This document shows positions 9,135-63,963 of a stretch of DNA of 64,000 nt, one piece after another. The DNA comes from Octopus vulgaris (Eukaryota), in contig OX597821.1 of NCBI GenBank assembly GCA_951406725.2, positions 31,496,001 to 31,560,000 on the forward strand, given 5' to 3'. Below the pieces are notes generated by a model. The model was not told the DNA's origin and did not search any database. It saw only the letters and a program-made list of their open reading frames with translations. Made by a program: the position numbers and the translations under genes. The stretch's first letter is position 1. Each line of letters begins with the position of its first letter.

Positions 9135-10510
9135 TCAACTTCTCTTCCTCCCACCCTGAACACACCAAGCTCCCCATCCTCTATTACCAATTCCTCCGTC
9201 TACGCAGGCTCTGCAGTAACGACCATGACTTTGAGACTCAGTCTCAACACATGGCTCGCCAACTCAGTCTACGTGGATATCCCCTTACCACTATCAGCAC
9301 CGCCCTTTCCAGAGCACTTCCAAAGACCGTGCATCTGCTCTCTTCCCCCACACCCACCTCGCCGTCACTCGTCTCCCGTTTCCCCTCAACTACCACTCCA
9401 CTCCTACCTCTTCAGCGCACGCTTCTCTGACCATCCGGCGGCTTCAGTCCGATCCCTCCACTTCGCACATCTTCCCTAACCGACAGCTCCCCTCCTTCAG
9501 ACCAGCCCACATCCTACGAACCCTCTTGGTTCACAACTTCTTCTTTAACTCAACCTCCCAATACGGTTGGTACTTTTGCTCCCGCCCACGCTGTCGCACT
9601 TGCCCTTACCTCTCCAACACCACCTTTTCCACAGACACCAATCATCGACGCTATCATATCACTGACTCCTTCACCTGCACTTCAAGCAACGTCCTCAACT
9701 GTATCTACTGCTCTCCATGATCCCATGCCGTTTCCGTTCTACCGGTCACTTTTTACACCTGTCTGTGTTCGGACTTTCCTTGCACAGGGATTAATCTTCT
9801 CTCTTCTCTCTTTTGCGCCACGTGTCCTCAACTCTGCTACGATCTTCATCTAACCCTCTTACTCTCATCTCTCTTTCTCTCGCACCTACTTCCTCTCTCC
9901 CTCCTCTCCGCTCTTGCTCTGACACATATTTCCTCTCTTCATTTCTACTCCACTCCCTTCCACCTATCCCTTCATCGTCACCCGCTTCCTCGTTCCCCAC
10001 CCCTACACTCTCCAAGCCCAGCATTCCTATAATTCCATCCCACTCCTCCTCATCCCTTAGATCGCACCCTTGCTTCCCACACATCGTCTCCGCACCCCCG
10101 AACACCATCACACCAAACACCACCAGAGAACGCCATACTAGCACTGACTACTTCCCAGCACCTACACCATCATTCACACACACGTCAAGGCCACCAGCCC
10201 CCTTCCACACCTACATACACGTTCGCACATACATATGCACGTGCACTTTCGTTTTGGGATCATCACTACATTATTATTTCCCCTTTTACCTAGCTCTCCT
10301 ATGTGACCCCTCTGTCCGGCATTCCCAATGACAGATTGCTAACCACTAAAACCTTTTCTACGTTCTTTCCCTGTTTCTTTGTGTTCCTCTCTCTCGAAGA
10401 GAATAGGCTCGAATCGTAAAATACTTTATCATTTCCCGAGCGTTAAAATAATACATCTGTCTGTTGTTTACACATCAGTCTTTGTCTTCTGCTTTTTGCA
10501 ATTTCACACT
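9135..10510 (+). mobile_element. Penelope-like element 3' part (RT thumb, partial GIY-YIG, 3' pLTR)
   Basis: SHPEHTK...QFLRLRRLCS...RGYP, then RPRCRTCPYL...FTCTSSNVLNCIYCS; 3' end homologous to 12945-13060 and 40570-40735. Confidence 0.85.
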
Positions 10511-12496
10511 ATATACCCATGCACATAGATACACGCATACACACACACACATGGGTATTCTCATATACCTACGTATATATTTATATACATATATATATAT
10601 ATATGTCTGTCTATGAATATATATTTTTCTATTTATATATATTTATATATTTTATTTATATGTATATCTACATATATTTATATATGTGTATATATGTGTG
10701 TGTGTGTATATATATATATATATATATATATGTGTGTGTGTGTGTGTATGTATGTATATATATACATATATATATATTTATATATTTATATATATTTATA
10801 TATCTTTACAACGTGAAACATTTACACAGATGTATAGTGTATGTACGTATATATGAACACACACACACACACACACACATATGCCTACATAATGCCAATA
10901 TTTTATAAGTTTGTCAAATAAACAAATAGTAATTCACTTAAAATTTTTCTTGGATTTCTCATTCTGAATAATTTTTATTTTTGTAAAAAACGTTTTTTCT
11001 AACGTTATATATTTTACTTTATTCTATTTATATTTCGATGTTTACTTTATTCTATATTCATGTGTTTCGAAGAAATAAATTTCGTCAATATATAAATTTA
11101 ATCAAATGAAATTACCTTAAAATCAATACGAACAATGTGCAACTTTATTTCTGACAATACTTATTTACCGGTGTCTTCAATTTGTTTTGTACTTTTCACT
11201 TATCTTTTTGTATTGTTTTTTTTACTATTTTTACATGTGTGTGTATTTACATAAACATACAATCGTGTATATATATATATATATATATATATATATATAT
11301 ATATATATATATATATGTATATACATATATATATAAACATATATATATGTATGTATGTGCATATATATTCCTATATATCTATATATACACGCATACACAC
11401 ATACACGGCGCATGGAAATTTTTTATACGTATTTATTTGATTTTTATGTCTATGTCTGTATAGGATAGTAGCTCTCATAATTTTTGAGTTTGAATCATAT
11501 ACTGTATTTTGAATCATACAGAGAAATTAGATGTTTCTATGATTTAATCAAATTAAAAGCAACTTTCTTTTATCTTCCAGTACTGAGGAATTTTCATGTG
11601 CTGTAAAAAAAAATATATTATTCTACTATAACAATAATTTGTGTTTTCTGATAACTATATAGTTGTTGCTGAAATAATGCAGTGTGCATTTAATATTTAT
11701 TATCTCAGCATATGTTATGCAATCAGTTTACAGTTTTCTAAAAGCAGTCGACACAGGGGATAAACAAAGGAAATATAAGATACGGTTATTTCCTCACCAG
11801 TCTAAGAATGTGATGTATTCGCACAAATAGAGTCTGGACCATTCTGCGCAAATTATTCAGTTGAGTAATTAGTTGCTTGAAATTATGAAGTCCTTATCCT
11901 CTAAAATTTAACAGGATGGACACTTTCTTTAATTATAAACATATTTTACCAGACATATCTCATATGATGCACGTTAAAGGGGAGATAATATTTGTGTAAA
12001 TCGAGAGAATTTCTCCAATAATTGCGCACAACAAGCCAGTAACGTGACATGCGGGTTATAAATTAATGTTTCAAGTCAAAACAATTACTATTACGTAAAA
12101 GAGTGTTTTTGTATATTCATGTTTAACTGTTAATTATCGACTGAGAACGAATCAAATTAAGCTGGCAAATATGAAGTGAAAGCCTAAAGACACGAACATG
12201 CGACATGGACATAAGAGGTGTTGGCAGTCGGCAGTCAGGTCTAGAAAGAAAGATCATGACCGAACGGACACCGGTCATGTGGAAGGAGGAGAGAAGGGTT
12301 GGGGAGAGTGGGATTGAAAGATTAGAAAAAATCAGAGATAAAGAAAGGTACAGGGGAGATAAACGAGTTGGAAATAGTGGGAGAGAGGGCCAAGAAATGT
12401 GAGAGGGGGGAAGCGAGAAAAGAAAGAAATTTGAGAGGAGAATAAAAGATGGCGTAAGCGTCGTACAAAATTTAGATACATATCTAATATAAGGTG

Positions 12497-12780
12497 AGCA
12501 CAAGGATGTACGTACGCCGCTATATATATATATATATACATAAATATACAAATACAACAAAAACGCAATTAAGAGCATTTAAATGTTCGGGCAGACAGCC
12601 AATACAAAGGCGGACAAGAAAGACAAAAACAATTAGAAGAACAGGCAAAAAAAGGCGGCTCATTCTTGGATTTTTTTCATCTGACAAGTTAGAGACGTCA
12701 CGGCCATTTCGGCCATTTACACTTGAGATCGTTCGATCTGGTTCCCTCCCACCGAAAAAAACGTCTAAGCTAAGGGATGT
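12497..12780. repeat. Dispersed repeat, homologous to 14946-15110
   Basis: Shared gtacgtacgccgctata...caaaaacgcaat...ggcggaca...cattctt. Confidence 0.7.
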
Positions 12781-12944
12781 ATGTATATATATATATATAT
12801 ATATATATATATATGCATATATGCATAATATACATATGTATATTCGTATATATGTATATACATATATGTATGTAAATGTATATATTTGTATATATATATA
12901 TATATATATATATATATATATATATATATGTATAAATCTTTTTT

Positions 12945-13060
12945 TTGTCTCCCTTACTCTCGAAACGTAGAAGACTTTCTCACTCCCCGAGCAATCAACT
13001 TATACATCTGTTTATTGGCTACGCAGCCGTCTTCGTCTCTTCTACTTTTGTAAATTCTCA
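12945..13060 (+). mobile_element. PLE 3'-end fragment inside (TA)n
   Basis: ctcgaaacgtagaagacttt...cccgagc...atacatctgttt...gtcttcgtct matches 10405-10510. Confidence 0.7.
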
Positions 13061-62600: not shown

Positions 62601-63661
62601 TTATTTTTAAACAAACAATATATGAGGCTTCACGCAAACCACAATAGTCTTGTATATATATATATATATATATATATATATATATATATATATTACGGCG
62701 GTTTTCGGTTATTCTACCTCAAGCTTTCTCTTAGGTTATATTATTTATTTAGGCTTTTCTCTGAGTAAGGGAGAATATCATGATTCAACGTCACTTACAC
62801 TCAAGTGTTATCATTATATCTAAACCCCTAACTGCAGTTATAACGTCATATAGACATATACGCATGGAACGCTACATCAACGACCATGTGTGTTTAATAT
62901 TTTTATCGTGTCCTTTAAACTGCTATAAGAAACATAAATCAAAGATTACAGAAATGCATATTTATCTATGCTCAGTTGAAAAACAAACGTGAAGAGAAAC
63001 ATATTCTTTTTAATTATTTTTTGTTATATAAATATAACAATTCATATTATTTACAAGAAGAAAGATAACTTAGTCGTGAAGAAAAACGACTTTAACTTCC
63101 TTAGCTAATTTCTTCTTTCTATCTAATACGTTAACCAACAAATCAAAATAGATTTGTGATTAACATAGACATGGCATAAAAATTTACCGATGCCTCCAAA
63201 AGAGTGAGTGACGTGGATTTATGTGACACCAACGAACACTAAAATCTCCCCCCAAATCCAGGGTTTTTATAACTGCTCAACCTGACCAAAAAGAATCGAA
63301 ATCCAGGACAAACAATTTTTTCGAAACTTCTGGAATCTTTATATGAGCAGTTATATTAAACAATGGGAAAAAAACGAAAATGACAATTCTTCGGCAAAGA
63401 CGTTACGTCATATTGCTAATTCGCGCCACATTTCAAAATGGCTAAAATGGTTATGGCTACAATATATATATATTTACACACACACACACATATATATATA
63501 TATATATATATATATATATATATATATATATATATATATATATATATATGTATATATATATATAAATATATGGATCTATTTTCTTTTCTGTCCTCCACCT
63601 CACTCTCTATTTTATATCTTATCTAAATTAACTATTTCTTGACCATACTCTGACAACGTTA

Positions 63662-63705
63662 CCGATGAAAGGATATAATAAATATCCTGGAAACAGCTAT
63701 AAGAC
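63662..63705 (+). ncRNA. Degenerate HHR-like motif in a PLE-like end
   Basis: CCGATGA-A-AGGATAT(AATAA)ATATCCT-G-GAAACAGCTAT; stem I not evident. Confidence 0.45.
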
Positions 63706-63749
63706 CTTCTATCTATAGATGTTCTAAAATCTACACAGCCTTATATATA

Positions 63750-63963
63750 TAGTTAATCCAAACATGAAAACACAAAGAGAAGACGCAAGAACGCGAGGAC
63801 GTGGAACAAGTATAGTGTTATTGGACGCTCAGGAAAGAAGGAAAAAGGAGGGACTAACGTTTCGAGCGGAGCTTTTCGTCAGAAACATAGGAAAAGGAAA
63901 GATCCAAGGAAGGGAAGACGGAGGAAAAAAATCCCCAGCGGTACACACGCAGTCACATTTTGA
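63750..63963 (-). mobile_element. PLE-like 3' end with HHR core (63854-63885)
   Basis: Reverse complement TTT-CTGACGA-AAAGCTCCGCTC-GAAACGTTAG; flanked by TA tracts. Confidence 0.65.

What the first reader, a model, noticed from the sequence alone, without database searches (positions are those of the whole stretch)
10385..63885. About a dozen HHR-like motifs from several unrelated short modules in 64 kb: a ribozyme-bearing PLE/retrozyme-like system
Seen: HHR-like motifs at ~10390, 12960, 15552, 23690, 29276, 37456, 40610, 48460/48530, 49101, 61345/62470, 63662 and 63854. Their stem II sequences are unrelated, but most share a tiny palindromic stem III (ACGT, ACAGCTGT, ACATATGT, AATATT, ACGCGCGT). 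Two families attach to PLE coding remnants (9135, 61856). Established: PLE pLTRs carry minimal type I HHRs thought to cleave as dimers via palindromic stem III. Inference: a diverse, high-copy population of non-autonomous HHR retroelements in this genome.
Basis: partly seen in the sequence, partly recalled or inferred. Interest (0 to 1): 0.75.

Follow-up and report, generated by a model that had tools for sequence, protein, structure and literature searches.

The report
Minimal hammerheads in Penelope retroelement ends
The motifs are real: they are small hammerhead-ribozyme sequences in the end repeats of several Penelope-type jumping-gene families that likely number about a hundred thousand in this animal genome; this arrangement is known, but two abundant families carry unusual core letters, and whether any of them still cuts RNA is untested.

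Summary
Confirmed. All 14 listed motifs belong to nine dispersed repeat families whose common form is a minimal type I hammerhead (HHR) with a palindromic helix III. Only 4 of the 14 window copies are intact; shuffles give 0.11. Evenly spaced genome samples (800 kb) hold 28 intact motifs against 0.8 in shuffles, about 10^5 genome-wide, so this window is ordinary. Four families are joined to Penelope-like (PLE) RT or GIY-YIG coding remnants; no ORF was found for five. The modules are solo, 5'-truncated or head-to-head PLE pseudo-LTRs in (TA)n, not retrozymes: 92 of 109 copies span the cut site and 0 of 38 are tandem. This is the system of Cervera and de la Pena 2014. Extras not found in the papers I could search: a G3-C8 swapped core (4,688 exact copies), an A6-to-U core (about two thirds of 27,536 exact matches), and inverted insertions that carry one long and one short 3' end (17 of 18). 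The scan noted the G3-C8 family before, on other DNA of this genome. Cleavage is untested.

The parts
9133..10500 (+). Family A: 5'-truncated PLE 3' end (decayed RT-thumb, Cys-linker and GIY-YIG-start remnant at 9134-9714, pyrimidine-rich 3' UTR, pLTR with decayed HHR at 10387-10422), ending in microsatellite
   Evidence: co-linear pieces at other loci; tblastn 61-77% to ORFs of loci L222 and L225
12945..13065 (+). Family A pLTR fragment; HHR core and stem II deleted, helix III and residue 17 (12969) kept
15414..15652 (+). Family C module: inverted short arm with tail, then HHR 15555-15617 (core with U4C, odd palindrome), then (TA)n
23527..23925 (+). Family B pLTR with tail; decayed HHR 23689-23769 with long stem II
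28705..28908 (.).
29081..30570 (-). Family D: 1.3-kb AT-rich non-coding arm with HHR 29384-29280 (very long stem II), joined to an inverted short arm that carries the tail; very young family
37400..37580 (-). Family B pLTR piece with intact HHR 37536-37456
40566..40753 (+). Family A pLTR piece; HHR 40608-40643 (family core has U at position 6; this copy is decayed further)
48380..48700 (.). Family E head-to-head insertion with two intact G3-C8 HHRs (48509-48460 on -, 48530-48578 on +); 55-nt tail on the right arm only
48925..49303 (-). Family F module; HHR 49183-49101 (family core U4C or canonical; G5 mutated in this copy)
61268..62650 (.). Family G head-to-head insertion: GIY-YIG remnants (61853-62226 on +, 61854-61588 on -), HHRs 61386-61345 (-, A9 mutated) and 62470-62511 (+, intact); tail on the right arm only
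63574..63740 (+). Family H module; decayed HHR 63658-63705 (family core U4C; A opposite G at the base of stem II)
63743..63960 (-). Family I module; HHR 63886-63852 (canonical minimal HHR family, sister of A), stems decayed in this copy

Best explanation
These motifs are minimal type I hammerhead sequences in the terminal repeats (pLTRs) of nine Penelope-like retroelement families, four of them joined to PLE coding remnants, and the short modules are likely solo, 5'-truncated or head-to-head pLTR copies inserted at (TA)n by PLE reverse transcriptase-endonucleases. Shown: HHR anatomy, high dispersed copy number, coding links for A, B, E and G, (TA)n next to the 3' ends, two discrete 3' ends per family, and copies that span the cut site. 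Inferred: a pLTR promoter makes the RNA. The PLE protein nicks AT-rich DNA and starts reverse transcription at one of two internal sites about 40-250 nt downstream of the HHR; the stretch between the two sites is the 'tail'. Copying from the 5' pLTR gives ~200-nt solo pLTRs, and copying from the 3' pLTR gives truncated 3' ends. When both strands are primed in one event, one from each start site, the result is a head-to-head pair with one long and one short end. The template is uncut RNA. The ribozymes likely cleave weakly, as dimers through the palindromic helix III or with help from the PLE protein, and are likely not needed for insertion. The G3-C8 core likely still cleaves; the U6 core is likely impaired.
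For: Shuffles: window 4 vs 0.11; 800 kb 28 vs 0.8, maximum 4 in 25 shuffles. Coding links in the same orientation, upstream of the HHR: G (RVT_1 E=4.8e-5 in L273, GIY-YIG E=7.6e-6 in L096/L354), E (GIY-YIG E=2.6e-5 in L349), A (DKG motif, RT motifs, Cys linker; 10 of 14 coding-picked loci also hold the family HHR, 9 of these 10 with U6), B (ORFs with RWL and DKT motifs in L271, EN-like part in L078/L065; no Pfam match). (TA)4 within about 10 nt of the family 3' end in 30/30 A, 18/20 I, 16/23 B, 17/23 C and 12/19 D copies, against 3.9% of random positions within 15 nt. Two 3' ends in B, D, E, F, G, H. E inverted insertions have exactly one tail in 17 of 18 position-picked and 25 of 25 score-picked loci; in B, D, F, G, H it is 24 of 32, with 8 short/short and 0 long/long. 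92 of 109 copies span the cut site; 1 starts and 0 end within 2 nt of it. E 5' ends: 20 of 30 stop within 4 nt of one point, 2 run on, 8 are shorter. B has TATA- and Inr-like motifs at its 5' cluster (consensus recalled). Stem I covaries between sister families A and I. Literature: PMC4209133, PMC3846280 (inverted pLTR, tail on one of the inverted pLTRs, TATA/Inr, solo pLTRs), PMC11167929 (two RT start sites, both strands extended, uncut RNA inserted, C3G/G8C partly active).
Against: No ORF was linked to C, D, F, H or I; D runs at least 1.9 kb without one, so some families may be self-propagating non-autonomous elements. B's ORFs have no Pfam support. No cleavage, transcription start or expression was shown. 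Family loci came from best-score lists, which bias toward copies like the window's; C's one-tail count (17/18) is biased by its query and was left out of the tally. G gave 7 short/short of 12 inverted. PMC3846280 explains head-to-head palindromes by self-priming on an antisense template, which my data do not exclude. F and H lack the usual G10.1-C11.1 pair in their common form.
Confidence: 0.8

Rival explanations
1. Most short modules are self-propagating non-autonomous PLE mini-elements (SINE-like), transcribed from their own internal promoter and mobilised in trans, rather than dead-end by-products of full-length PLE transcripts.
For: Sharp 5' ends; very many short copies; no ORF for five families; D is young and non-coding over at least 1.9 kb; several amplified subfamilies in A and E.
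Against: The young E subfamily has a coding-linked copy with the same loop (L349). A, B and G show graded 5' truncation into ORFs. A pLTR promoter in a coding element predicts the same sharp 5' end.
Confidence: 0.14
2. They are non-LTR retrozymes that are cut out by tandem HHRs, circularise and reinsert from circular RNA.
For: HHR-bearing, non-coding, 150-400 bp. Unchecked scan notes report tandem arrays of other HHR repeats in this genome, and family F forms an alternating array at one locus.
Against: 0 of 38 intact motifs have a tandem partner and 8 of 38 have an inverted one; copy ends avoid the cut site; cores are minimal, not canonical; ends fit PLE tails.
Confidence: 0.04
3. Chance resemblance in AT-rich repeats, multiplied by repeat amplification.
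For: 10 of 14 window copies fail the strict descriptor; one chance master motif would be multiplied with its family.
Against: 18 distinct sequence clusters with at least 2 intact copies share the anatomy; 0 of 370 control repeat copies match; the motifs sit where PLE pLTR HHRs are known to sit; all three of C-G, U-A and G-C occur at the 3-8 pair.
Confidence: 0.01

Closest known systems
Minimal type I HHRs in pLTRs of metazoan PLEs (Cervera and de la Pena 2014, PMC4209133; read: main text parts 1-2 of 4, supplement file 2 part 2 of 3; supplement file 1 could not be searched)
   Same: Short helix I, extra nucleotide after A9, palindromic helix III, many families per genome, mostly single motifs, inverted pairs 100-700 bp apart, U3-A8 variants.
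   Different: About 10^5 intact motifs here (own descriptor, extrapolated) against 2,000-9,000 reported per genome. G3-C8 and U6 cores are absent from the alignment rows seen. Stems II are very long in B, D and F.
EN+ PLE insertion architecture (Arkhipova et al. 2013, PMC3846280, passages; Craig et al. 2021, PMC8557442, passages and section 11)
   Same: About 200-bp pLTR, inverted 5'-truncated partner, tail on one end, TATA/Inr, solo pLTRs, (TA)n targeting. Family B ORF has the Hydra-type DKT and an RW motif; family A has DKG and a Cys linker (Neptune/Nematis type).
   Different: Tails are 50-155 nt rather than 30-40 nt; the one-long-one-short rule is counted here.
PAc (Poseidon of Anolis) in vitro system (PMC11167929; passages and second half of the main text)
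   Same: Two internal RT start sites bound the tail; both strands are extended; uncut RNA is the insertion substrate; an engineered C3G/G8C swap partly restores cleavage.
   Different: Here the G3-C8 swap is natural and high-copy; nothing here was tested biochemically.
Animal non-LTR retrozymes (Cervera and de la Pena 2020, PMC7229834, passages; bioRxiv 10.64898/2026.07.22.740005, parts 1-3 of 5)
   Same: Non-coding, type I HHR, related to PLE pLTRs.
   Different: Those are tandem repeats with canonical HHRs that make circular RNA; these modules are dispersed or inverted and span the cut site.

Membership tests
PLE minimal type I HHR | Core C3-U4-G5-A6-N7-G8-A9 ... GAAA ... UH in type I order | tested here: met
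   B, D, G and I are canonical; C, F and H have U4C; E has G3-C8 (pair kept); A has A6U and does not meet the A6 position
PLE minimal type I HHR | Palindromic helix III from 15.1 to 16.1 | tested here: met
   All nine family majority lines, made without the descriptor; C has one unpaired centre
PLE minimal type I HHR | Short helix I, hairpin helix II, usually an extra nucleotide after A9 and G10.1-C11.1 | tested here: met
   Helix I 2-7 bp; extra nucleotide in A, E, F, G, H, I; G10.1-C11.1 missing in the common forms of F and H
PLE minimal type I HHR | Self-cleavage as dimer or with PLE protein | not testable with these tools
   Cofolding pairs the palindromes of two copies in A, B, C, D, F and H; in E, G and I other helices pair instead. 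This is prediction only.
EN+ Penelope-like element | RT and C-terminal GIY-YIG ORF upstream of the 3' pLTR | tested here: met
   A, B, E, G; no intact full-length ORF seen
EN+ Penelope-like element | ORF link for families C, D, F, H, I | tested here: inconclusive
   No linked ORF of 130 aa or more in 1.5-kb flanks of 20-25 loci each; I is sister to coding-linked A
EN+ Penelope-like element | Inverted 5'-truncated partner and optional tail at one end | tested here: met
   two 3' ends not shown for A and I
EN+ Penelope-like element | Clade placement by RT phylogeny (Neptune, Nematis, Hydra, Poseidon) | not tested
   No labelled references on hand; motif-level only. B has DKT and RWL and lacks an obvious CCHH, but the CxCX5C linker was not seen.
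Non-LTR retrozyme | Tandem repeats with an HHR in consecutive units | tested here: not met
   0 of 38; a few tandem pairs among score-picked loci of A, C and I
Non-LTR retrozyme | Unit ends set by HHR cleavage | tested here: not met
   92 of 109 copies span the site; 1 starts within 2 nt of it
Non-LTR retrozyme | Abundant circular RNA | not testable with these tools
   Only assembled contigs were served

The most novel reading that the evidence does not exclude
In this genome the PLE hammerhead is kept mainly as a fold (a protein-binding or RNA-dimerising platform at the reverse-transcription start region), not as a cutter. The most abundant lineage found, some 18,000 exact copies in four N7 subfamilies and joined to coding PLEs, spread after replacing the conserved A6 with U while keeping its stems and palindrome, and the one-long-one-short inverted insertions record a paired two-strand priming step. 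With its natural G3-C8, U3-A8, U4C and A6U cores, this genome would be a natural mutational scan of what a PLE hammerhead is for.
Probability: 0.22. Interest if true: 0.7.

Novelty: new member of a known kind. Interest (0 to 1): 0.4.

Why it matters
The function of PLE hammerheads is an open question (PMC8557442, PMC11167929). This genome offers an estimated 10^5 copies and natural core variants that standard descriptors miss: a compensated G3-C8 swap, which suggests selection for the catalytic 3-8 pair, and an uncompensated A6U in the most abundant lineage found, which suggests cleavage can be lost. Side-by-side assays of sister families A (U6) and I (A6) would test directly whether cutting matters for spread. 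The one-tail rule gives a genome-scale prediction for how PLE proteins prime both strands. As a listing of HHRs in PLE ends, the finding is expected.

Tried and rejected
Rfam scan: microsatellite-driven miRNA matches only among the 150 rows shown. A first descriptor that allowed only C3-G8 missed family E. Pfam did not recognise the decayed window ORFs or family B's ORFs. The idea that family E spreads as one fixed 340-bp palindrome came from score-picked loci and was dropped: position-picked loci show variable junctions and many single arms. A multi-copy repeat with a core-like heptamer at 34295 (-) has no GAAA or helix III and is not an HHR. Screening 199 core-like heptamers of the window for multi-copy context gave no further clear HHR family; permuted hammerheads were not modelled. 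A GIY-YIG fragment near one family F copy lies downstream, beyond a microsatellite, and was not counted as a link. RNA: no RNA holder listed on record; contigs cannot show ends. Laying contigs on family A was inconclusive for position 6, since even known differences there were not listed. Lunse et al. 2017 on PLE hammerhead dimers is not held, so G3-C8 or U6 variants may be in it unseen. Searches for natural G3-C8/U6 cores and for hammerheads in octopus and the passages read found none. The first estimate of E 5' ends was confounded by T-run indels and was redone with an anchor.
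Full report
Setting. The window is G000:C8:31496001-31560000 in a 2.8-Gb animal genome of 227 contigs. I take it to be octopus-like from its size and microsatellite load; that is my inference and no call tested it.

Observation. Each of the 14 listed sites carries an HHR-like motif. They fall into nine families: A (10391, 12969, 40612), B (23693, 37532), C (15561), D (29382), E (48502, 48537), F (49178), G (61381, 62475), H (63662) and I (63882). A descriptor that knows no family finds 4 intact motifs in the window against 0.11 in 400 shuffles, with a maximum of 2. 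The other ten are decayed. Each family query gave 657-2,069 first-look candidates in the genome, of which 40 were scored. The majority lines of the best 19-29 copies per family read as type I minimal HHRs with a palindromic helix III. Under a relaxed descriptor the motif is intact in 146 of 206 of these copies. Of 370 copies of six other window repeats, none matches.

Abundance. Eighty 10-kb stretches taken at round coordinates across 30 contigs hold 28 strict motifs against 0.8 in 25 shuffles; the bootstrap range is 18-40. Scaled up, that is about 95,000 (60,000-137,000) intact motifs, not counting U6 cores. At that rate 2.2 are expected in 64 kb, and 4 is unremarkable (Poisson by hand, P about 0.2). 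All loci together (1.74 Mb, enriched for the nine families) gave 18 clusters with at least 2 intact copies and 39 singletons. Exact patterns give 4,688 G3-C8 motifs and 27,536 family A/I-type motifs, with 0 for the reversed control patterns.

Core variants. Family E reads G3-U4-G5-A6-N7-C8-A9, with 7-bp helix I and 5-bp helix II, in subfamilies with different loops. In contigs of four runs under four organism labels, the only common changes listed in this core were at N7 in all four runs and at A9 in one contig; coverage there was much thinner than downstream. Of the first 100 A/I matches listed, I counted by eye 67 with U6, 31 with A6 and 2 with C6; N7 takes all four bases in the U6 lineage. 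A and I share helix II and differ by a compensated pair in helix I. U3-A8 families occur elsewhere in the genome, and C, F and H carry U4C. Natural U3-A8 and a weakly active A6C are in print (PMC3088659, section 8). An engineered C3G/G8C swap partly restores cleavage of a PLE HHR (PMC11167929). I found natural G3-C8 or U6 in no text searched, but Lunse et al. 2017 and supplement file 1 of PMC4209133 could not be read.

Link to PLEs. The 9133-10500 stretch is co-linear at other loci. Those loci carry RT motifs, DKG, a Cys linker and GIY-YIG-like sequence, and 10 of 14 also hold the family A HHR. Family G loci carry RT and GIY-YIG upstream, and the window's 61268-62650 element is a head-to-head pair with GIY-YIG remnants in both arms. 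A longer E copy (L349) has a GIY-YIG ORF piece upstream of its HHR. B loci carry ORFs with DKT and RWL motifs that fit the Hydra description in PMC8557442 section 11, without Pfam support and without a visible CxCX5C linker. No ORF was linked to C, D, F, H or I.

Insertion anatomy. 3' ends abut (TA)n. B, D, E, F, G and H have two discrete 3' ends 50-155 nt apart. Inverted E insertions have exactly one long end in 17 of 18 position-picked loci (P=7e-5 against a null of 0.5, the highest possible under independence) and in 25 of 25 score-picked loci. For B, D, F, G and H the count is 24 of 32, with 8 short/short (7 in G) and none long/long; C was left out as biased. By inspection, the five inverted insertions in the window (15414, 28705, 29081, 48380, 61268) follow the rule. 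E 5' ends cluster: 20 of 30 stop within 4 nt of one point, 2 extend further and 8 are shorter. B shows TATA- and Inr-like motifs where its 5' ends cluster (motif consensus recalled). Of 109 copies found outside the query-picked sets, 92 span the cut site, 1 starts within 2 nt of it and none ends there. Of 38 intact motifs in the 800 kb, 0 have a tandem partner and 8 an inverted one.

Mechanism. Shown: anatomy, abundance, coding links, end structure. Inferred from PMC11167929 and PMC3846280: pLTR transcripts are copied by PLE RT/EN from either of two internal start sites at AT-rich nicks. Solo pLTRs arise from the 5' pLTR, truncated 3' ends from the 3' pLTR, and head-to-head pairs when both strands are primed, one from each site. 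Self-priming on an antisense template (PMC3846280) is a published alternative for the palindromes. The template is uncut RNA, so cleavage is likely not part of insertion. Cofolding pairs the helix III palindromes of two copies in six of nine families, in line with the dimer model of PMC4209133, but this is prediction. Against a role of the HHR in making inversions: Naiads lack canonical HHRs yet form them (PMC8557442), and score-picked family A loci show few head-to-head pairs.

Comparison and verdict. This works like, and is a member of, the PLE pLTR minimal HHR class of Cervera and de la Pena 2014, which already reported massive, heterogeneous, mostly single motifs and inverted pairs in metazoan genomes. 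It fails the two retrozyme tests that I could run. A 2026 repeat annotation of an octopus (PMC13282606, passages) lists active Penelope families and does not mention ribozymes in its main text. Scan notes, unchecked AI notes read after my analysis, report the G3-C8 family and a 'cutting not needed' reading on other DNA of this genome. Verdict: real, ordinary in kind, with two noteworthy natural core variants and a clean end rule; interest 0.40.

Noticed in passing
window 19600-23100: Array of a 26-bp satellite, flanked by a 90-bp tandem repeat (18853-19782, 23052-23531) that reads partly as a repeated 30-aa unit.
   Followed up: no
window 29081-29500 (-): The window's family D copy differs from near-identical genomic copies by five single-base deletions, most in short runs; real decay or assembly errors.
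   Followed up: no
L065:2282-3172 (-), L078:2-835 (+): The family B ORF has an asparagine-rich stretch between the RT thumb and the endonuclease, recalling the N-rich inserts of rotifer Penelopes in PMC3846280.
   Followed up: no
L159-L164, L275 (G000:C25:44.61 Mb): Alternating inverted array of 99% identical family F modules with a period of about 1.17 kb.
   Followed up: partly
L349, upstream of the family E HHR: The point where most E copies begin directly follows a branch-point-like and pyrimidine-AG sequence (recalled splice consensus); it could be a 3' splice site, as in D. virilis Penelope, or a transcription start.
   Followed up: partly
L268, L294, L262, L285, L260: At least three further families with U3-A8 cores, and other canonical families, some as adjacent inverted pairs (L232, L256, L291).
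   Followed up: partly
window 33325-33779 and 33928-34373: Two diverged tandem copies of a multi-copy repeat with a core-like heptamer but no other HHR parts; class not determined.
   Followed up: partly
window 1845-2213 (-) and 13728-14201 (+): Decayed frames that look by eye like LINE reverse-transcriptase remnants; Pfam found nothing.
   Followed up: partly
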